A stretch of 64,000 nucleotides of DNA. It comes from a virus. A program made the position numbers and the translations under genes. Shown in pieces: positions 7,816-17,680 of the stretch (position 1 is the stretch's first letter; every line of letters begins with the position of its first letter). The stretch covers positions 1 to 64,000 of IMG/VR virus record IMGVR_UViG_3300021437_000012; one strand, given 5' to 3'. Under the pieces are notes generated by a model. That model worked only from the letters and a program-made list of their open reading frames with translations. It had not been told where the DNA came from and did not search any database.

Positions 7816-9123
7816 ATGGCGAAGCGCAACGGCGACTCAGACGCGAAAATTAAGGATCTGAAAAAAGATCCTAGAAATGCGCGGTTTCATCCAGCACGCA
7901 ATATGGCGATGCTGGAAGATTCAATGCGCGAAGTCGGCGCTGGTAGATCGATTGTCATTGATGAAGACAATGTGATTTTAGCGGGTAATGGTGCAACTGA
8001 GGCGGCGCAGCGGGTTGGTATAGATAAGGTAAGAATCATCGATGCTGACGGTGACGAGTTAATCGCGGTTAGGCGTAAGGGGCTCACTCCTGAGCAGAAG
8101 ATAAAACTCGCGCTTTGGGATAATCGCGCTCAGGAAACTTCGGAATGGGATCCTGACGTACTTAGATCAATGGAAGCGGAGTTTGGCGAGTCCCTCAAAT
8201 TGAAGGGACTCGGCGGTTTGTTCACTGATAGCGAAATGGAGAAGTTGGTTAAAGAGACGAAGAAGTTGGACATAGATAAAACTCTTCAGGATACACCTGC
8301 ATTTGATAAACAGGCGTTTAACCCAGCTTATGTGTTGAATGTCGGTGCAGTATTTTCTTCAAGCAATGAGTGGGAGATTCCCGATTTTCTCCCGGATAAG
8401 TTCTCTACTAAAATCCCAGTTACGAGCTACTACGGCGAAAAACCGATTGAGCATCCAGAACAGAAATACTTCATGTTCAACAAAACGATGCCAATCGAAG
8501 CAAAAGAAGGGTTAATTGCATTTTATCAAAACGATGATTCTTTTGAATCTATTTGGTTTGAACCAGGGATTTGGTTGGACGACTTCGCTCAAAAAGGCGT
8601 GACTGACTTAGTTATGCCAGATTTTTCTACTTACTTCTCAATGCCGCTTCCTATACGTTTATACAATTATCATAGGTCGAGACATATTGCGCGACTTTGG
8701 CAAGAGGCTGGATTTAATGTAATGCCGTCTCTTTCAGGAACCGGCGTACCTGAAATGCAAAAGTTTACGCTTTATACCTTACCCAAGGAAATGCCAGTAG
8801 TCTCCTGTCAATGTCGAACGCTTGGAACAGAGAAAACTGGTCGTACGCGCAACCAAGCTCTTTTTATTAAGGGTCTTATAGATTTAACTGATTACGCGAA
8901 AATCGGCACAGTCCTCATTTACGGTGGTGGCGATCATGCCGCATGGCTTAAAGCAAATTTGCCAACTGGCCCAGGAAGACCAGAATTCAAACTTATCCCT
9001 TCAAGGCAAGAGTTGCGACGACGCAAAATTGAAGTTAAAAAGAAAGTGCCAAAGGGGAAGATCGTAGTTGACATACCAGACGAATTAGATGATAATGTAG
9101 AAGAAGACGCGGAAACGGATTAA
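7816..9123 (+). CDS. ParB-N-like domain fused to DUF4417-like domain
   Basis: N-terminus DPRNAR.H...SMREVG.GRSIVIDE.NVILAGNG (ParB/Srx-like). C-terminus FYQNDDSFESIW...PDFSTY.SMP...YNYHRSR...WQEAG.NV.P...VLIYGG (DUF4417 pattern). Confidence 0.8.
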   Translation: MAKRNGDSDAKIKDLKKDPRNARFHPARNMAMLEDSMREVGAGRSIVIDEDNVILAGNGATEAAQRVGIDKVRIIDADGDELIAVRRKGLTPEQKIKLALWDNRAQETSEWDPDVLRSMEAEFGESLKLKGLGGLFTDSEMEKLVKETKKLDIDKTLQDTPAFDKQAFNPAYVLNVGAVFSSSNEWEIPDFLPDKFSTKIPVTSYYGEKPIEHPEQKYFMFNKTMPIEAKEGLIAFYQNDDSFESIWFEPGIWLDDFAQKGVTDLVMPDFSTYFSMPLPIRLYNYHRSRHIARLWQEAGFNVMPSLSGTGVPEMQKFTLYTLPKEMPVVSCQCRTLGTEKTGRTRNQALFIKGLIDLTDYAKIGTVLIYGGGDHAAWLKANLPTGPGRPEFKLIPSRQELRRRKIEVKKKVPKGKIVVDIPDELDDNVEEDAETD

Positions 9124-9295: not shown

Positions 9296-9335
9296 CGCAC
9301 GCCTGCAAATACAACATTGCAGGCGTGCGAATTTT
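9296..9335 (+). terminator. 13-bp perfect hairpin (terminator-like)
   Basis: CGCACGCCTGCAA-N8-TTGCAGGCGTGCG followed by AATTTT. Confidence 0.5.
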
Positions 9336-9340
9336 CACTT

Positions 9341-9988
9341 ATGCCTCCTCGTTCGTTGCTTCCTGTTAAATCTGGTGGTCAGCAAAAGTCTGCAAACAAG
9401 ACCGGAAAACGTGTTCCTTGGCAGAATAATCCTCATATACTGGAGCGTCTAGCTAAGGTCGAATATCTTCATCTTGCAGGAATGCGGGTTGAAGAAATTG
9501 CTGCTATGTTGACTGCTCAGACAAATCGGCAGATTAGCCCTAAGTTAATTTATGTCGATTTGAAGCGCCTTGAGACAGTCTGGCGTGAACGTCTTGGGCG
9601 TAAGGTGGAAGTTCAGCGTTTACGGTCAACTGCGAAATATCAGTCTATTCAGCGTCGCGCGTTGGAAAATATGCGTAATGCAGTCGGTGGACTAGAAAAG
9701 ATTGCGTGGACTCGACTAGAAAAAGATTGTGAAGATGCGATTGTCAAAATTCAAGGAACGCTTGCACCACTAGAAATTGACTTAAATGCGAAGTTCGCGC
9801 CAAGAGAACAAATTGCGGCGTCAGTGCTGGAGCGTCTGGCTGTTTCATTCAACGGTAAAATGCCAGATGTCATTGATGTGGAGGTTGTGAAGCATGGCGA
9901 CTCCAGCGGAGGTAATGGAGTTAATAAAGACGGGGCAGTTGTCGAAAATAAAGACGATATTGGAGAACCAATCGATTGCGGAGATTGA
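9341..9988 (+). CDS. terminase small subunit (putative)
   Basis: HTH-like segment (LAGMRVEEIAAML), helical, directly upstream of and overlapping the large subunit. Confidence 0.7.
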   Translation: MPPRSLLPVKSGGQQKSANKTGKRVPWQNNPHILERLAKVEYLHLAGMRVEEIAAMLTAQTNRQISPKLIYVDLKRLETVWRERLGRKVEVQRLRSTAKYQSIQRRALENMRNAVGGLEKIAWTRLEKDCEDAIVKIQGTLAPLEIDLNAKFAPREQIAASVLERLAVSFNGKMPDVIDVEVVKHGDSSGGNGVNKDGAVVENKDDIGEPIDCGD

Positions 9989-11405
9989 TCAACTAAATTC
10001 TGATTTACTCGAACTGATTAAGCAGCGATCTGTTGTTGATATTGGTACTTACGGTTATTATGTGCATGGTTGGGCTCCGTACTTCACACATATTCGTACT
10101 ATCACCCGTGCGTTGAATGCAATGGAGCGCGGGCATGATGGGGATCGATACGTTATTGTAGTAGCTCCTCCTCAGCACGGTAAGACGAATTGGTCTTCGA
10201 TTGCACTTAGCTCGTGGTATCTCGGGCGGCATCCTGATCGGCATGTCCTTCATATCTGCGCGACTGATGATCAGGCGTTACTTAATTCAACCGCGATTAA
10301 AGACACCGTACAAGCGTCTTCACGATTTCGCGAGATTTTTCCACGCGCACAGTTGGACGGACTGAAGCCTCAAGGTGGCGCGACGTGGTTCCTTCAACGT
10401 AAAGAACTTGGTGATAAAGACCCGTCATTTGCAGCTTACGGTTCAGGGTCAAAAAAGATTCTCGGTCGTGGTACGCAGATGTTGATCGTTGACGATCCTT
10501 GCGATGAAGAGAATACGGGGACTAAGTATCAGCGAGATAAGTTGTGGGATTGGTTCAACTCGAAGGTGCTGTCTCGACTTCATCCCGTACTTGGTCGTGC
10601 GATTATCATTATGCACCGATGGCATGATGAGGATTTAGTGGGCAAATTACTTAAGACTGAAGGTAATGTAAAAGATGGTGGACGATGGAAACTGATTTCT
10701 ATGAAAGCTGTGCAGGATGACGGGACTGCACTTTGGCCTGAATTTCAACCTCTTGATGCACTTATGCGCGCACGAGCGCGTAATCCACTTATATTTGAGT
10801 CTCTGTGGCAGGGTAATCCTTCAGCCCTCGCAGGGCAAATTATTCATGGAGATACGTTGCAAGACGTACCAGGCGATTTTCATCCAGTGCGCGCGTGTAT
10901 GGGCATTGACCTTGCTATTTCTCAACGCGAATCCGCTGATTATACGGTAATTGCGGGAGTCGCGTTGGATAAGGACAATCGTGGAGCAGTGATGTTGATG
11001 AGGCGGGGACGGTGGGGTTTCATGGAGCAAATAAATCAGGTGGTGACTGCATACGATGAATTTAATGCAATTTTGCGGCCTTGGGAAGTTAAAGTTGAGT
11101 TGGTTGGAGTCGAATCAGTGCAGTATCAGAAAGCAATGGCCGATTTTCTTAATGCGCGATCTTTGTTGCCTGTTTACGAAGTTGGAGTAATGAAGGATAA
11201 AGTATCTCGTGCCCGTCCTTGGATTGCCCGAGCAGAAACGGGGAATTTCTTCGTTTCCCATAAAGTAGACTTATGGCCTGATTTTCTTTCAGAGGCAGTC
11301 GCGTTCGGTGGTACGCGAACCGAGCATGACGATATGATTGATGCGGTTTCAGCGGCGTGGCAAACTCTTGAGTATTCAGGGACTTCTGGGATTATGGTGG
11401 TCTAG
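9894..11405 (+). CDS. terL: terminase large subunit
   Basis: Walker A APPQHGKT, Walker B LIVDDP, nuclease GIDLA and HDDMIDA. Confidence 0.95.
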   Translation: MATPAEVMELIKTGQLSKIKTILENQSIAEIDQLNSDLLELIKQRSVVDIGTYGYYVHGWAPYFTHIRTITRALNAMERGHDGDRYVIVVAPPQHGKTNWSSIALSSWYLGRHPDRHVLHICATDDQALLNSTAIKDTVQASSRFREIFPRAQLDGLKPQGGATWFLQRKELGDKDPSFAAYGSGSKKILGRGTQMLIVDDPCDEENTGTKYQRDKLWDWFNSKVLSRLHPVLGRAIIIMHRWHDEDLVGKLLKTEGNVKDGGRWKLISMKAVQDDGTALWPEFQPLDALMRARARNPLIFESLWQGNPSALAGQIIHGDTLQDVPGDFHPVRACMGIDLAISQRESADYTVIAGVALDKDNRGAVMLMRRGRWGFMEQINQVVTAYDEFNAILRPWEVKVELVGVESVQYQKAMADFLNARSLLPVYEVGVMKDKVSRARPWIARAETGNFFVSHKVDLWPDFLSEAVAFGGTRTEHDDMIDAVSAAWQTLEYSGTSGIMVV

Positions 11406-11437
11406 CGGATTATTTCTACTTTAGGGGTACGAGACAC

Positions 11438-11477
11438 TTGACAACCATATTGAACTGTGGTACAGTGTAACCACAGT
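11438..11477 (+). promoter_or_regulatory. sigma70 promoter with overlapping palindromic operator
   Basis: TTGACA(11438)-N17-TACAGT(11461) with extended TG; inverted repeat ACTGTGGT-N8-ACCACAGT at 11454-11477; GGAGG SD follows. Confidence 0.8.
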
Positions 11478-11491
11478 CGGAGGAAATTGAC

Positions 11492-12034
11492 ATGGATACA
11501 ATGACAATCACCGAAGGACTTGCCGAATTGAAGACTATCGGTAAGCGGATTGAAAAGAAACGCGCCGCAATCCAGACTTATTTGGTACGGCCTGCGGTGG
11601 TGAAAGATCCTTTAGCTGCGCAAGGCGGATCGGCTGCTTACGTTAAGCAGGAAATGCAGTCGATCTATGACTTGTTAACGAGATTCGCCACAATTCGACA
11701 TGCAGTGCAGTCGAAGAATCTTGGCACTCAACTTACCATTGAGGGACTTACGCGCACTGTGCAAGGGTGGTTGAATTGGCGGAAAGAGATTGCGCCGATC
11801 TACACCAAGCATCTGCAACAAATTCGCGCCAATATAGACGCGGTGCGGAATCAGACACATAGGCAGCAGGGTCGGGTTTTGAAGGAAGATGCGCAGGACG
11901 CTAATCAGACTGATGTGCTGATCAATCTTGATGAAGTGGTGTTGAATCAGGATCTTGAACGCATCGAAACGATCTTGGGAACTTTGGACGGCAAGTTAAG
12001 CTTGCTGAACGCGACGACTACAATAGAAGTGTAA
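11492..12034 (+). CDS. coiled-coil protein resembling the DIP1984/DUF6847-like family
   Basis: MTITEGLAELKTIGKRIEKK N-terminus and LDGKLSLLNATTTIEV C-terminus; family recognised from memory only. Confidence 0.6.
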   Translation: MDTMTITEGLAELKTIGKRIEKKRAAIQTYLVRPAVVKDPLAAQGGSAAYVKQEMQSIYDLLTRFATIRHAVQSKNLGTQLTIEGLTRTVQGWLNWRKEIAPIYTKHLQQIRANIDAVRNQTHRQQGRVLKEDAQDANQTDVLINLDEVVLNQDLERIETILGTLDGKLSLLNATTTIEV

Positions 12035-12040
12035 AGAACA

Positions 12041-12297
12041 AAAATCTCCATTCGGTAGCGAAGAGGGAAGAACAGGAAACGGCCCACATCAGGGCTCCAT
12101 TGGTAGAGCACTGGATGTCAAGCAACATCTTAAAGCTGAAAGATGAAAGTTCATAAGCTGCTTATCTAAAAGCTGATAAGATGAAAGAGTATAAGTTGGT
12201 TAAAATCCGTCGTTCAACTGAAATTCGTGGAGACATGAATTGCGCGGTTTCTTGTCCGCGTTCTCTGGTTGACGGCAGCGACTTGGATGGAGATTTT
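12041..12297 (+). ncRNA. putative structured RNA with tandem AAG heptamers
   Basis: Ends pair perfectly (AAAATCTCCAT / ATGGAGATTTT). Internal hairpins include a GAGA tetraloop, there is a possible pseudoknot, and eight heptamer/octamer repeats; no ORF. Confidence 0.65.
12132..12198 (+). repeat. eight imperfect (A/T)AAGNNN repeats
   Basis: AAAGCTG AAAGATG AAAGTTC ATAAGCTG [CTTATCT] AAAAGCTG ATAAGATG AAAGAGT ATAAGTTG. Confidence 0.8.
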
Positions 12298-12302
12298 AAG
12301 TA

Positions 12303-12554
12303 ATGTCAGATCATCCGTATAAAGGTAAGTGGATTGCGTTAAGTCCGACTTTGCAAGTTGGTTTTGACGATGAAGGAAAGCCTGGATTTCGGACTCCTGA
12401 GAAAATGCCAGAACTTAGTGCGATGATGGAGCAGTTAATTCAAGGTCGAGAGATCAGACTTCAGCAACTTGGGTTGATTCAGGCGTTTCTTGTTGCGTCA
12501 AGTGGGGAGCAGGAAAAGCGAATCGTACCTCCACCGCCGGGACTTAAACTTTAG
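12303..12554 (+). CDS. hypothetical protein
   Basis: GGAG SD lies inside the 3' closing stem of the RNA. Confidence 0.7.
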   Translation: MSDHPYKGKWIALSPTLQVGFDDEGKPGFRTPEKMPELSAMMEQLIQGREIRLQQLGLIQAFLVASSGEQEKRIVPPPPGLKL

Positions 12555-12562
12555 GAGTTAGT

Positions 12563-12748
12563 ATGACTGATCGTGACGGCGTACAACTTCATGTGGGTGA
12601 TAAAGTCATGGTGACTTTGAGTAAATTAAATGTTGAGGGGCGTGTTGTAGAAATTAAGAAAAGGTCGTTCACTGTGCGACTGGATAGTGATAAGGTAGAT
12701 AAGCATCAGATTATCACTCGTAGGTCGCATCAAGTCAAGATAATTTAG
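12563..12748 (+). CDS. small KOW/SH3-like protein
   Basis: AGGAG RBS; LHVGDKVMV...GRVVEI pattern. Confidence 0.65.
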   Translation: MTDRDGVQLHVGDKVMVTLSKLNVEGRVVEIKKRSFTVRLDSDKVDKHQIITRRSHQVKII

Positions 12749-13414: not shown

Positions 13415-13633
13415 ATGCCGTCAGGACGAATGTTACGCGCAAGGGGACGCATTGTGACGAGCGATTTAGTGGCGAAAGAAGGGCTGTATCCTGCGTGTCC
13501 TGAGTGTAAGGCGGAAGCTGGTGCCCCTTGTAAAGTTGCACCAACGCGAAAGTATAAAATTCACGCCAAGCGACGTAAATTGTACGTAGCGCAGACTATA
13601 GCTAAAGCTCATGCGCCAAAAAACGAGGAGTAG
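13415..13633 (+). CDS. Zn-finger protein
   Basis: CPECKAEAGAPC...H..RR; AGGAG RBS. Confidence 0.7.
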   Translation: MPSGRMLRARGRIVTSDLVAKEGLYPACPECKAEAGAPCKVAPTRKYKIHAKRRKLYVAQTIAKAHAPKNEE

Positions 13634-14483
13634 TATGACTAAAGCCTTATTTAGAAAATACGCACGTCGTAAATTGAATCAAGTAATAAAGTCGAGTTCT
13701 TCGAGCTTCAGAATTAATAATATAGCGTGTCTTCAAAGTGAAATCAGTTTAGCGTTTGATGTAGGTAAGAGCATTAACAAACGTATGAGTCATGTGGCTC
13801 AATGTTTACGTTGGCTAATGCACATTGATACTGATGTAAGCAAAGGTTGGCTTAACCCTACCTTAGCGACAATGAGCGCAGGGCAATCTGAATATGCGCA
13901 TGGCGTAGATAATGCGTTTGACAACTTCGAGCGTCTTGCAGCATCTATGGGTCTTACTCGCGATCAAGTTCTTCGTGTGTATCTTCAGAAGCATATCGAC
14001 GGTATACGCGCGTGGATGGAAGGGCACAAGTCGCAACGCGAGTCTGTGCGCGGGCGTATTCAGGACGCGATTGTGTATTTACTTCTTTATTCTGCAATGT
14101 TGCACGAAGATTCAGAGCCCACTGTAGCTGATAAAGTAGACCATTCTTCATTGACGATTCAAGAGCTTATTCAAGATTCATGGCAAACTGCGGAAGACAA
14201 GGGATGGCATGAGCGCACTCGTGAAGTGCCGGAACTTATTGCGTTGGTGCACTCGGAGCTTTCGGAGGCGTTGGAGGAATACCGTAAGCCTAGCACGTAT
14301 GAAACTGATTTTTACATAGGGGACTGTGGTAAGCCAGAGGGTGTAGCGGTAGAGTTCGCTGACGTTGTTATTCGTATTGCGGATGCAGCCTGTTGCCTTA
14401 ATTTACCTTTAGAAAACGCACTACGAGCAAAGCTGGCGTATAACAAAACTCGTGAGCATCGACATGGGGGTAAAAAGGTATGA
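13611..14483 (+). CDS. nucleotide-modification-associated (DUF1599-like) domain fused to MazG-like NTP pyrophosphatase
   Basis: EYA...AFDNFER...KHIDGI...RIQDAIVYLLL, then KGW...ALVHSELSEALEEYR...EFADVVIRIAD...KLAYNKTR; true start uncertain. Confidence 0.75.
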   Translation: MRQKTRSSMTKALFRKYARRKLNQVIKSSSSSFRINNIACLQSEISLAFDVGKSINKRMSHVAQCLRWLMHIDTDVSKGWLNPTLATMSAGQSEYAHGVDNAFDNFERLAASMGLTRDQVLRVYLQKHIDGIRAWMEGHKSQRESVRGRIQDAIVYLLLYSAMLHEDSEPTVADKVDHSSLTIQELIQDSWQTAEDKGWHERTREVPELIALVHSELSEALEEYRKPSTYETDFYIGDCGKPEGVAVEFADVVIRIADAACCLNLPLENALRAKLAYNKTREHRHGGKKV

Positions 14484-16032: not shown

Positions 16033-16181
16033 GGGGTCTTCGCCCCGCAGTGCAAGCTGGATTTGTTTTTGACCGCGAAGGCAAACAAGTTCCTATCTTT
16101 GAATGTCGTAATCAGCGACAGTGTGGGTTAGCTGATAAGATAGGCGCTCCTCCTGTTGTAGAGGATGTGTCTACGCGATGA
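15993..16181 (+). CDS. Zn-finger hypothetical protein
   Basis: GAGG RBS; CQWCG...ECRNQRQC. Confidence 0.55.
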   Translation: MDAPLCQWCGRALGGLRPAVQAGFVFDREGKQVPIFECRNQRQCGLADKIGAPPVVEDVSTR

Positions 16182-17680
16182 GCATGTCATTGCTTCCTTC
16201 GCTTTATCGATCTATTAAGCCTGTCTCTCTTTTACCACCCCCATCGGATTACGTAGAAAAAGCTTCTACTGTAATGGCCGCAGTTGCACAAGCGGCAGTT
16301 TATGAGACTGGACCTTTGGGCCTCGCACAGCCCGAAGAGTTCCTTAAGTTTATGCGCGTTTTCTCTAAACAACCCACCGTGTATCGATGTGTGACTGTTA
16401 TTGCAAATGCGCTTGCTTCAGTAAATTTGAAGTTCTACGAAGTTAAGGAAAATACGGATGACCGCAAAGAATTGCCTTTCAGTCATCCCTTAATACAGTT
16501 ATTCAGAAAACCTAATCCTCTCATGACTGGGCATGAGTTAAAACTGCATTGGGGGTTGAGCTTAGAGTTAACAGGCAACGCTTACTGGGAAATTGCGGTA
16601 GGCGTTAACGAACATACTGGCGAAGAGAAGTTAGAACTATGGCCTATTAATCCGGGTAATACACGAATTGTGCCTGATAGATTTCGTGGTGTGCGTGGGT
16701 ATATTTACACCATTAATCGCAAACCTATTCCGCTGCCCATTAAGAAGGTTTTTCATACGCGATACATAAATCCTAATCACGAATTTTATGGCATCGCGCC
16801 TATGGTTTCTGCGTCTCGTGCACTAGATGCAGAAGACCTTTTGATGCGACATGCAAATGCGTTGCTTAAGAATTCTGCGCGTCCGTCCGGCATTCTCATG
16901 ATTGATGGTGATTTGACCGGGCCGCAGCAAGAGCGCCTACGGACTGAATGGGAACAGTTATACCAAGGCGCGGACAACGCTGGAAGGACTGCCATCGTTT
17001 CGCGTGGTAAATCCTACACAACTATCACAATGACCCCTGAGCAGATTCAATTGATCGAAACTCGTCAATGGCACCGGGATGAGTTAATGGTTGCTTACGG
17101 ACTGTATCCAATCTTCTTCGGTATTCTCGAACGTGCGACATTAGAGAATGCTGAAATGCAATGGAAGATGTTTTGGAAGACGACGATGGAGCCTAAGTTA
17201 GCGATGTTGGAAGACCAGATTACTGATTCACTGCTTCCGCGCTTTGGAATTCATAACGTCGTCGCTGAATTTGACCGCACTGAATTGGACGCTTTCAAAG
17301 ATGAAGCGCGCGAAGAAATGCTTAGTCTATTACCTGCGTTGGACCGTGGCGTTATTACGATCAACGAAATTCGTAAAGATACTTTGAAGAAACCTCCGCA
17401 ACCGTGGGGCGCTAAGCCTTGGATGTCTTCAGGATTGGTGCAGCTTGGTGCTGATAACGCAATGCCCGCGCCAACGAGTCTGCTGCAAGGCGAAAGTGGG
17501 CAGACTACGCCTAATGCACCAAAATCTGAAGCATCGTCTAAACTTACTTCTTCTATGGGTGGAGCAAGTGCTGCAATCAGTGCACTTGATATGCACGCGG
17601 CGTTTACTGGCACCGCATCGGCAGCGGAATCTACAGCTATCGCGTCTTCAGGCGCCAGTGGTGCGGAGTCAGGGCCTTAA
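16178..17680 (+). CDS. portal protein (HK97-like)
   Basis: VYRCVTVIANALAS, HPLIQLFRKPNPLMT, LTGNAY, YGIAP, NSARPSG, TINEIR. Confidence 0.95.
   Translation: MSMSLLPSLYRSIKPVSLLPPPSDYVEKASTVMAAVAQAAVYETGPLGLAQPEEFLKFMRVFSKQPTVYRCVTVIANALASVNLKFYEVKENTDDRKELPFSHPLIQLFRKPNPLMTGHELKLHWGLSLELTGNAYWEIAVGVNEHTGEEKLELWPINPGNTRIVPDRFRGVRGYIYTINRKPIPLPIKKVFHTRYINPNHEFYGIAPMVSASRALDAEDLLMRHANALLKNSARPSGILMIDGDLTGPQQERLRTEWEQLYQGADNAGRTAIVSRGKSYTTITMTPEQIQLIETRQWHRDELMVAYGLYPIFFGILERATLENAEMQWKMFWKTTMEPKLAMLEDQITDSLLPRFGIHNVVAEFDRTELDAFKDEAREEMLSLLPALDRGVITINEIRKDTLKKPPQPWGAKPWMSSGLVQLGADNAMPAPTSLLQGESGQTTPNAPKSEASSKLTSSMGGASAAISALDMHAAFTGTASAAESTAIASSGASGAESGP

What the first reader, a model, noticed from the sequence alone, without database searches (positions are those of the whole stretch)
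11438..12297. Autonomous promoter + coiled-coil protein + structured ncRNA cassette inside the packaging module
Seen: a consensus promoter with operator, a 180-aa helical protein, then 257 nt whose ends pair (12041-51 with 12287-97). The RNA contains a hairpin at 12086-12118 and an 8-bp GAGA-tetraloop hairpin at 12222-12241. A further hairpin at 12242-12261 has a loop region GTTTCTTGT that can pair with ACAGGAAAC (12072-80) as a pseudoknot. From memory the protein resembles the DIP1984/DUF6847-like family, and I know of no described RNA partner. Inference: a ribonucleoprotein or protein-RNA toxin/antitoxin-like module.
Basis: partly seen in the sequence, partly recalled or inferred. Interest (0 to 1): 0.82.

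Follow-up and report, generated by a model that had tools for sequence, protein, structure and literature searches.

The report
Phage helical protein with partner RNA
Just after a small helical-protein gene, this freshwater phage encodes a real, knotted non-coding RNA of about 257 bases; the same two-part module, whose job is unknown and which I found in no RNA catalogue or paper searched, recurs in hundreds of phages, with weak matches reaching model phage T5.

Summary
Window 12041-12297 (+) is a structured RNA. A closing helix, a three-way junction, a GAGA-loop hairpin and the predicted pseudoknot all covary across 25-67 homologous loci.

A covariance model built on 25 loci found one full-length copy in the window, in 71 viral loci and in 13 of 13 independent MAG loci. 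Every copy lies beside a homolog of the 180-aa gene. No other neighbouring gene is conserved, so the unit is protein plus RNA, and its place between terminase and portal is incidental.

The family RNA has:
- an invariant AGCGAAG motif;
- about seven A[AC]G-cored units per RNA at 7-nt spacing (AAAGNUN; eight in the window);
- in about a third of members, a real tRNA of varying isotype. The window keeps only a D-arm relic.

The protein is a four-helix bundle. Its only full-length structural match is PDB 3KDQ, and DUF6847 matches are sub-threshold.

Rfam 15, PADLOC and the literature searches gave nothing. I found no support for a toxin-antitoxin reading. An RNP is inferred, not shown, and there are no expression data.

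This scan has already reported the same module on other DNA, in at least 28 genomes. This window holds the shortest member among the 52 loci measured.

The parts
11438..11466 (+). sigma-70-like promoter candidate (TTGACA, 17 nt, TACAGT, with upstream TG)
   Evidence: 10/12 matches. Such matches are at chance frequency in this region, and only 13% of homologs have one upstream.
11454..11477 (.). 8-bp perfect inverted repeat (ACTGTGGT / ACCACAGT) overlapping the -10 hexamer; possible operator
   Evidence: I7. Conservation was not tested; its function is inferred.
11492..12034 (+). gene for a 180-aa four-helix-bundle protein (remote DIP1984/DUF6847-like fold), SD GGAGGA 8 nt upstream
   Evidence: The family has 1615 clusters at 50% identity with E<=1e-3. 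AF2 model pLDDT 96.7.
12041..12297 (+). the whole structured ncRNA (about 257 nt), starting 6 nt after the stop codon
   Evidence: Covariance model R1: 178.6 bits, E 1e-54; the only hit in the 64-kb window. nhmmer searches of the whole 88.6-kb genome found a single match to the 5' motif and to the 3' domain.
12041..12059 (+). closing helix P1, 5' strand (pairs with 12278-12297)
   Evidence: Of the 13 P1 pairs counted on 67 sequences (two helix segments), 10 show compensatory changes; 92.5% and 93.1% of cells are paired.
12057..12071 (+). near-invariant 5' motif AGCGAAG followed by a purine run. Conserved as sequence rather than by covariation, so it may be a protein or tertiary contact site.
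   Evidence: one match per locus where it is found (53 of the sequences searched), always + strand, usually 6-24 nt after the gene's stop.
12072..12080 (+). pseudoknot 5' strand (ACAGGAAAC), pairs with 12247-12255
   Evidence: 21 of 25 loci have >=6 complementary bases. The sequences differ completely between loci but stay complementary.
12086..12118 (+). hairpin in the variable linker; its inner part looks like a tRNA D-arm, read as a relic of an embedded tRNA
   Evidence: ARAGORN finds no tRNA here. 24 of 67 homologous RNAs hold a real tRNA at this position.
12132..12198 (+). two rows of four 7-8-nt units with an AAG core (AAAGNUN), predicted unpaired
   Evidence: Across the family, lag-7 pairs number 133 against 11.7 expected, and lag-14 pairs 92 against 9.9.
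12207..12219 (+). junction helices P2 (12207-11) and P2a (12216-19), 5' strands; partners are 12271-75 and 12267-70
   Evidence: 99% and 95% of cells paired; 8 of 9 pairs have double changes.
12222..12241 (+). hairpin HP1, 8 bp, GAGA loop (GAGA/GAAA-type loop in most relatives)
   Evidence: all 8 pairs covary.
12242..12261 (+). hairpin HP2, whose loop (12247-55) forms the pseudoknot
   Evidence: all 5 stem pairs covary.
12267..12297 (+). 3' strands of P2a, P2 and P1. Includes GGAG (12289-92), which lies 10 nt before the ATG of the next gene (12303-12554).
   Evidence: The GGAGG-type 3' strand sits at SD spacing from a start codon in only about a quarter of loci (my reading of the tails printed).

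Best explanation
A self-contained two-part phage module. A 180-aa four-helix-bundle protein is paired with a cognate pseudoknotted non-coding RNA of about 257 nt, encoded directly after the gene, probably on the same transcript as a 3'-UTR-borne RNA.

Shown: the RNA is conserved as a fold. P1 closes its ends, P2/P2a form a three-way junction with two hairpins, and a pseudoknot ties the 5' segment to the HP2 loop. The RNA travels with this gene and with nothing else.

Inferred: the protein binds the RNA, most likely along the two single-stranded rows of AAAG heptads, several protomers per RNA, while the knotted core makes a compact and stable particle. Copies of the same unit in the translation start region of many homologs suggest that free protein represses its own translation.

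The variable linker is a permissive site. It holds a real tRNA in about a third of members. If RNase P and RNase Z cut that tRNA out, the two RNA pieces would stay joined by P1 and the pseudoknot. The window's copy has lost the tRNA.

The cellular target is unknown. The frequent placement in or beside phage tRNA arrays points to translation or tRNA biology. In this window the 3' strand of P1 also buries the SD of the next gene; I read that as a local side effect.
For: Structure.

Linkage:
- The RNA 3' domain is present in 70 of about 72 viral loci that encode a homolog, one copy each, always on the same strand.
- The covariance model gives full-length hits in 71 loci plus the window, and in 13 of 13 independent MAG loci, 104-159 bits.
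- Pattern scans that ignore the protein returned only RNA copies that had the gene beside them.
- In two loci the order is swapped. In L066 the RNA ends about 40 nt before the gene's start; in L026 it lies about 680 nt upstream.

No third partner: neighbour clustering finds only the protein itself. The next largest clusters are its antisense shadow ORFs, and the rest are in <=7 loci. Downstream ORFs are essentially all singletons.

Co-inheritance: protein and RNA distances correlate (Mantel rho 0.28, p 0.001).

Heptads: 7-nt periodicity. The unit is enriched in the gene's own leader: heptad-spaced pairs in 14.7% of homologs against 0.2% of control genes, Fisher p 1e-8.

tRNA link: tRNAs of many isotypes are embedded. 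In Bcp1, Xoo-sp15 and pVp-1 the gene follows a tRNA array, and in all three the unannotated gap after the gene ends in a terminator-like hairpin.

RNA rather than DNA: G-U pairs are conserved on the + strand only, and the fold is strand-specific.
Against: - No binding, expression or phenotype data exist here. No RNA run holds the stretch.
- The protein has no recognised RNA-binding domain and no functional annotation.
- The window's own leader lacks AAAG units.
- The leader-enrichment test does not correct for relatedness of the loci.
- The Mantel correlation is modest.
- Tight linkage would also fit a purely cis-acting 3'-UTR element.
- About half of the members, the window included, show no tRNA-like feature in my motif search, and this phage's only two tRNAs lie about 60 kb away. 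So the tRNA link is not universal.
- A later check of the same claim on other DNA upheld only the conserved-RNA-plus-gene observation and priced a bolder functional reading at 1/100.
Confidence: 0.62

Rival explanations
1. A purely cis-acting 3'-UTR element. The fold stabilises the protein's mRNA or controls its own expression, with no function in trans and no stable particle.
For: The RNA starts 6-24 nt after the stop codon in most loci. A terminator-like hairpin follows it in Bcp1, Xoo-sp15 and pVp-1. AAAG units in the gene's leader fit autoregulation.
Against: A 250-350-nt fold with six covarying helices, a pseudoknot and an optional tRNA is far more than a stabiliser needs. In two loci the RNA lies upstream of the gene, and in several it lies 100-1000 nt away.
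Confidence: 0.15
2. A translational operator for the downstream gene. P1 sequesters the GGAG Shine-Dalgarno of gene 12303-12554 and is opened by ribosomes terminating at 12034, giving long-range coupling.
For: In the window GGAG (12289-92) lies inside P1 and 10 nt before the ATG, and P1 starts 6 nt after the upstream stop codon. About a quarter of loci have a start codon at SD spacing after the conserved GGAGG (my reading of the tails printed).
Against: Downstream ORFs are unrelated between loci (51 ORFs, 49 clusters). The distance to the next ORF ranges from 9 to more than 100 nt. Terminator-like hairpins follow the RNA in the cultured phages.
Confidence: 0.06
3. A protein-RNA toxin/antitoxin or abortive-infection module, type III-like, in which the repeat RNA neutralises a toxic protein.
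For: A repeat-bearing RNA sits next to a small protein gene, in variable genomic contexts that look mobile.
Against: No PADLOC or Pfam toxin model matches. The fold is a helical bundle, not a ToxN/AbiQ-type RNase. The units are 7 nt rather than about 36 nt. The gene order is reversed. The module is kept in hundreds of virulent phages such as T5 relatives.
Confidence: 0.04
4. Chiefly a carrier or processing platform for phage tRNA genes. The conserved flanks would direct expression or maturation of the embedded tRNA.
For: Real tRNAs of many isotypes sit at one fixed position. The module lies at the end of tRNA arrays in cultured phages.
Against: Only 24 of 67 members carry a tRNA, and 30 of 67, the window included, show no tRNA-like feature in my motif search. 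The conserved core lies outside the tRNA.
Confidence: 0.06
5. A DNA-level site (replication origin with iterons, or a pac site next to terminase) rather than an RNA.
For: Eight short direct repeats, a single copy per genome, and a position next to TerL in this window.
Against: The covariation keeps G-U pairs that would be A-C mismatches on the other strand. The fold is strand-specific. The terminase context is not conserved. A 7-nt period does not fit the DNA helical repeat.
Confidence: 0.02

Closest known systems
Ro60 (Rsr) with YrlA-type Y RNA (Rfam RF02553)
   Same: A protein gene lies next to a dedicated structured ncRNA that carries a tRNA-like module. From my own knowledge, such pairs also occur in some phages.
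   Different: The protein is a 180-aa helical bundle, not a TROVE ring. The YrlA model does not match this RNA; its only weak hits fall on tRNA arrays. Here there are heptad repeats, and in some members a real tRNA rather than a mimic.
ROOL and GOLLD large ornate phage-associated RNAs (Rfam)
   Same: Structured RNAs of unknown function found in phages. From my own knowledge they often lie near tRNAs or contain them.
   Different: No Rfam match. This RNA is much smaller (245-350 nt), and it has an obligate neighbouring protein gene, which those RNAs lack.
Repeat-track RNA binders: TRAP on GAG/UAG repeats, CsrA on CsrB/RsmZ GGA repeats
   Same: Evenly spaced short single-stranded units that could each bind one protomer. 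Copies of the unit at the regulator's own start site would allow autoregulation.
   Different: The unit (AAAGNUN, period 7) and the protein fold are different. Binding has not been shown. The units are embedded in a knotted scaffold.
Type III toxin-antitoxin systems (ToxIN, AbiQ/antiQ)
   Same: A protein and a repeat-containing RNA are encoded side by side.
   Different: See the membership test: repeat length, gene order and protein fold all differ.
RAGATH-19 / RAGATH-27 orphan motifs (RF03096, RF03100), named by earlier agents of this scan as catalogued fragments of related RNAs
   Same: According to those notes they overlap relatives of this RNA in other phage groups.
   Different: They give no hit at E<=10 in the window or in T5, nor at E<=1 in 11 related loci.
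Phage T4 band C / band D stable RNAs of the tRNA cluster
   Same: Phage ncRNAs of unknown function, described as the only small RNAs known from a virulent phage (PMC4933390). That they lie in the T4 tRNA cluster is my own knowledge.
   Different: No homolog of the protein turned up under T4-type names in the organism tally. I did not compare the sequences.

Membership tests
Any Rfam 15 family (incl. ROOL, GOLLD, YrlA, tmRNA, RAGATH-19/27) | Covariance-model score at or above the family's gathering threshold | tested here: not met
   Zero hits in the window at gathering score. At E<=10 on 11400-12700 there are only two chance snoRNA rows. In 17+8+3 related loci only tRNAs pass. T5's copy gives none.
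tRNA | Cloverleaf recognised by ARAGORN or by Rfam RF00005 | tested here: not met
   None in the window. Hairpin 12086-12118 keeps only a D-arm-like stem-loop. 24 of 67 relatives do contain a bona fide tRNA there.
DUF6847 (PF20935) / DIP1984-like proteins | Pfam or NCBIfam HMM score above the curated cut-off | tested here: not met
   No hit for the window protein even at E<=10. Three of 28 family members hit PF20935 weakly, best E 0.005.
DUF6847 (PF20935) / DIP1984-like proteins | Shared fold with the solved C. diphtheriae protein (PDB 3KDQ) | tested here: inconclusive
   3KDQ is the top and only full-length match: Foldseek E 2e-3, TM 0.49/0.57; VIA Z 11.0, 152/152 aligned, rmsd 6.4. For helical bundles a Z below about 13 can be a generic arrangement. 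That 3KDQ is DIP1984 is my recollection and was not checked.
Type III toxin-antitoxin (ToxIN-like) | Toxin is a ToxN/AbiQ-fold endoribonuclease | tested here: not met
   The model is a four-helix bundle. There are no PADLOC or Pfam toxin hits.
Type III toxin-antitoxin (ToxIN-like) | Antitoxin is a tandem array of repeats of about 34-36 nt upstream of the toxin gene, separated from it by a terminator | tested here: not met
   The units are 7-8 nt and lie inside a knotted RNA located after the gene.
Type III toxin-antitoxin (ToxIN-like) | The protein is toxic and the RNA neutralises it | not testable with these tools
   Needs expression tests.
The recurrent phage 'helical protein + heptad-repeat knotted RNA' module reported earlier in this scan | Homolog of the protein with a structured RNA directly beside it, bearing 7-nt-spaced units and end pairing | tested here: met
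   Weak but consistent matches of my model in T5 (E 5e-4) and Bcp1 (E 2e-3), with the same features visible by eye in T5, Bcp1 and pVp-1.
Ribonucleoprotein (protein binds this RNA) | Direct physical binding | not testable with these tools
   Only genomic linkage, co-inheritance and shared AAAG units in the gene's leader.

The most novel reading that the evidence does not exclude
The pair forms a previously undescribed class of phage ribonucleoprotein particle. Several protomers of the helical protein would line the AAAG heptad tracks of a knotted, nuclease-resistant RNA that presents a tRNA or tRNA-like arm. The particle would act in trans on the host's translation or tRNA-directed immunity, for example as a decoy or sponge for tRNA- or A-rich-RNA-cleaving defence nucleases, or as a platform for phage tRNA maturation.
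Probability: 0.12. Interest if true: 0.9.

Novelty: categorically new. Interest (0 to 1): 0.7.

Why it matters
Phage genomes are packed with coding sequence, yet hundreds of unrelated tailed phages keep 250-450 non-coding bases behind one small gene. They range from uncultured freshwater and soil phages to T5-like, Bastille-like and jumbo phages. Here the two parts are shown to move together as the only conserved unit, and the RNA's fold is backed by unusually rich covariation.

Neither part has a known function, and the RNA matches no Rfam family. A conserved protein-RNA pair of this spread may be a missing piece of phage biology, plausibly touching tRNAs, translation or defence evasion. It is directly testable because E. 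coli phage T5 carries the protein gene, followed by a gap that matches the RNA model only weakly.

The window's copy is the shortest found. It has no tRNA and so outlines a minimal core, which would suit structural and binding work.

The label 'categorically new' rests on the absence of any matching family or description. It does not rest on a demonstrated new mechanism.

Tried and rejected
- The 40-aa ORF 12181-12303, which overlaps the next ATG as TAATG. ORFs over the 3' domain occur in 22 of 52 loci, which is about the chance rate, so I do not read it as a gene.
- A multi-copy phage promoter as the explanation of the 5' motif. Rejected: nhmmer finds one match per locus and one in the whole 88.6-kb genome.
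- Conserved neighbours. TerL, portal, the ProQ_C-like gene, MazG and the others do not recur near homologs.
- Protein-independent pattern scans of viral contigs. They gave mostly chance matches, and every genuine RNA copy had the gene beside it. The scans were narrow, so this is only a weak test of 'RNA never without protein'.
- PAK_P3 sRNA1/sRNA2 (PMC4933390) as expressed relatives. PAK_P3 has neither the protein nor the RNA.
- Literature searches for DIP1984, RAGATH-27, T5 transcriptomes and small stable RNAs of tRNA clusters. None described this pair. The 2023 catalogue of 10,006 viral candidate RNAs (PMC10690425) may contain it unnamed; I could not check.
- Expression. No RNA holder was listed for this stretch, only three freshwater DNA runs.
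- Direct DNA similarity to cultured phages: none. A single-sequence scan of viral contigs found nothing until an alignment was used.
- Sequence search of solved structures: no meaningful hit.
- A k-turn reading of AGCGAAG was considered by eye and dropped, because the position after GAAG varies.
Full report
**Setting.** The window is the first 64 kb of an 88.6-kb IMG/VR virus record. Three freshwater metagenome DNA runs hold the stretch. The finding lies between the large terminase (9894-11405, phrog_38, E 4e-84) and the portal (16178-17680, phrog_12, E 1e-74). About ten small genes sit between them.

**Observation.**
- Promoter-like site TTGACA-17-TACAGT with TG at 11438-66.
- An 8-bp inverted repeat over its -10 hexamer (11454-61 / 11470-77).
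- A 180-aa ORF at 11492-12034.
- Then 257 nt whose ends pair (12041-51 with 12287-97, extendable to about 15 pairs).
- A hairpin at 12086-12118, a GAGA-loop hairpin at 12222-41, and a hairpin at 12242-61 whose loop is complementary to 12072-80.

The + strand folds with z -4.2, and 0 of 200 shuffles fold as well. The - strand gives z -1.55. Promoter-like matches in the region are no more frequent than in shuffles, so the promoter is plausible rather than shown.

**Relatives.**
- The protein has about 200 close-length homologs at 43-53% identity.
- A profile search finds 1615 clusters at 50% identity with E<=1e-3.
- An alignment-based scan returned 76 viral loci.
- In most of these loci, 200-400 nt after the gene's stop codon hold no ORF of 55 aa or more, and these stretches resemble each other at the DNA level.
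- Iterated nhmmer finds a roughly 165-nt 3' domain in 70 of about 72 loci. There is one copy each, always on the gene's strand, usually 100-500 nt after the stop, and twice upstream of the gene.
- A 25-nt 5' motif with a near-invariant AGCGAAG also occurs once per locus where it is found, and once in the whole 88.6-kb genome.

**Architecture.** From 5' to 3' the family RNA has:
1. the P1 5' strand;
2. AGCGAAG followed by a purine run;
3. the pseudoknot strand;
4. a variable linker;
5. two rows of three or four AAAGNUN units;
6. AAAAUCC;
7. P2 and P2a;
8. hairpin HP1 with a GAGA/GAAA-type loop;
9. hairpin HP2, whose loop forms the pseudoknot;
10. UUCUCAGG;
11. the P2 3' strand;
12. GGCUGC;
13. 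the P1 3' strand, usually GGAGG.

Lengths run from 245 to 350 nt, and the window's copy is the shortest of the 52 measured.

**Covariation.**
- RNAalifold on 25 MAFFT-aligned tRNA-less members predicts 38 pairs, 32 of them with compensatory changes.
- Counting pairs with the pseudoknot included gives 89.2% of cells paired, against 62.4% after shuffling (0 of 500 shuffles reach it) and 35-45% when partners are slid. 36 of 41 pairs show double changes, and the covariation score is 0.714 against 0.207.
- The pseudoknot strands differ completely between loci yet stay complementary. Cognate pairs average 6.9 bp against 4.8 bp for non-cognate pairs, permutation p 2e-4.
- A covariance model built from the 25 (288 positions) gives full-length hits of 63-216 bits in 71 loci and 178.6 bits in the window, one per locus.
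- On 67 model-aligned sequences, 94.4% of cells are paired and the score is 0.82 against 0.20. This alignment is fitted to the structure, so it leans towards it.
- Prospective test: 13 loci found through the protein in bacterial MAG assemblies, none used in building the model, all carry a full-length hit (104-159 bits) just after the gene.
- G-U pairs conserved on the + strand, together with the strand-specific fold, argue for RNA rather than double-stranded DNA.

**What belongs to the unit.**
- Clustering every ORF of 70 aa or more in about 85 loci gives only one real conserved family, the protein itself. The next two clusters are its antisense shadow ORFs, and all others occur in 7 loci or fewer.
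- Downstream ORFs are essentially all singletons.
- None of the window's neighbours recurs near homologs.
- Protein and RNA distances correlate modestly (rho 0.28, Mantel p 0.001).

The module is therefore protein plus RNA, and it moves between genomic contexts. The packaging-module position here is incidental.

**tRNA connection.**
- In 24 of 67 members the linker holds a bona fide tRNA: Arg, Ile, Gln, Ser, Val, Lys, Thr, Leu, Tyr, Asn and others. Rfam tRNA scores for six of them that were scanned are 43-70 bits. A few have odd anticodon loops. 36 of 67 have at least a T-arm-like hairpin.
- In the window only a D-arm-like hairpin remains (12086-12118). ARAGORN finds no tRNA in the window, and the genome's only two tRNAs lie about 60 kb away.
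- Distant homologs (about 27% identity) occur in cultured phages. In Bacillus phage Bcp1, Xoo-sp15 and Vibrio phage pVp-1 the gene directly follows a tRNA array. It is itself followed by 370-535 unannotated bases. In Bcp1 and Xoo-sp15 these hold AAAG-type repeats, an AAAAUCC...GGCUG core and a terminator-like hairpin. pVp-1 shows the core and the hairpin, with AAAG-type units visible by eye only; neither nhmmer nor the covariance model matched it.
- With the pVp-1 protein as query, 744 phage records match, T5 included. In the T5 record the gene is annotated on the opposite strand. T5's gap shows the same features and a weak model hit.

**Heptads.** In the 90 nt before P2 there are about seven A[AC]G units per RNA. 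Pairs at lag 7 number 133 against 11.7 expected, and at lag 14, 92 against 9.9. The same unit is enriched in the 45 nt before the protein's own start codon: heptad-spaced pairs occur in 14.7% of homologs against 0.2% of control genes (Fisher p 1e-8, not corrected for relatedness). The window's own leader lacks them.

**Protein.**
- The AF2 model is confident (pLDDT 96.7): four long helices capped by a small sheet.
- The only full-length structural match is PDB 3KDQ, an uncharacterised C. diphtheriae protein.
- BFVD returns only uncharacterised phage proteins.
- There is no Pfam, NCBIfam or PADLOC hit. PHROG 1491, labelled 'tail fiber', matches at 7e-18, a label with no support here.
- DUF6847 appears only sub-threshold.

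**Downstream gene.** GGAG of the P1 3' strand lies 10 nt before the ATG at 12303, and P1 begins 6 nt after the upstream stop codon. Termination could therefore open P1 and couple the two genes. Only about a quarter of loci have a start codon at SD spacing there (my reading of the tails), and the downstream genes are unrelated. I treat this as a local side effect.

**Interpretation.**
- Shown: a conserved, knotted RNA that is inherited with one protein gene.
- Inferred, confidence about 0.6: the two form an RNP, with the protein on the heptad tracks and possible autoregulation at its own start site.
- The function is unknown. The tRNA association hints at translation or tRNA biology.
- The toxin-antitoxin reading fails every testable criterion.

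**Prior knowledge.**
- Rfam 15 has no matching family.
- The papers searched describe nothing like it.
- Earlier agents of this scan reported the same module in at least 28 other genomes. A later check upheld the conserved-RNA-plus-gene observation (94/100) but not a bolder functional reading (1/100).
- Their suggestion that RAGATH-19 and RAGATH-27 cover fragments of the RNA is not borne out for this subfamily or for T5.

Noticed in passing
window 12563-12748 (+): A 61-aa protein with a ProQ C-terminal (Tudor-like) domain (PF17516, E 1.7e-6, above the cut-off) lies two genes after the RNA. It is an RNA-chaperone-type domain in a phage. It is not conserved near homologous modules.
   Followed up: partly
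window 12181-12303 (+): A 40-aa ORF lies inside the RNA's 3' domain and ends in TAATG with the next gene's start. Comparable ORFs occur at chance frequency in relatives.
   Followed up: yes
L007, L024, L052, L063, L066 (tRNA inside or beside the RNA): ARAGORN reports tRNAs with 2-nt or 4-nt anticodons (tc, atcc, tt, taaa, aa). They could be degenerating tRNAs or frameshift-suppressor-like tRNAs.
   Followed up: no
L062 1435-1796: A tmRNA gene (tag ANDNVEQVAQRLAA) lies on a 132-kb viral contig about 2.2 kb upstream of the module.
   Followed up: no
L220 (phage T5, AY692264 35159-35956): The T5 homolog is annotated on the opposite strand as T5p083. Long antisense shadow ORFs over this gene recur in about 44 loci, so misannotation is probably common. 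In other records the family is labelled 'tail fiber protein' without evidence.
   Followed up: partly
window 7816-9123 (+): A ParB-like domain fused to a DUF4417 nuclease (phrog_940, E 3e-47) lies upstream of the terminase region.
   Followed up: no
window 13611-14483 (+): A 290-aa protein with a C-terminal MazG-like pyrophosphatase domain (phrog_3301, E 4e-35).
   Followed up: no
window 9296-9329 (+): A strong terminator-like hairpin (13 pairs, 9 of them G-C) lies just before and overlapping the start of ORF 9317-9988, which precedes TerL.
   Followed up: no
window 12026-12040 / 12060-12074 and 12127-12139 / 12164-12176: Short direct repeats. The end of the gene resembles part of the 5' motif (GAAG...GAAGAACA), and the two heptad rows are imperfect duplicates of each other.
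   Followed up: no
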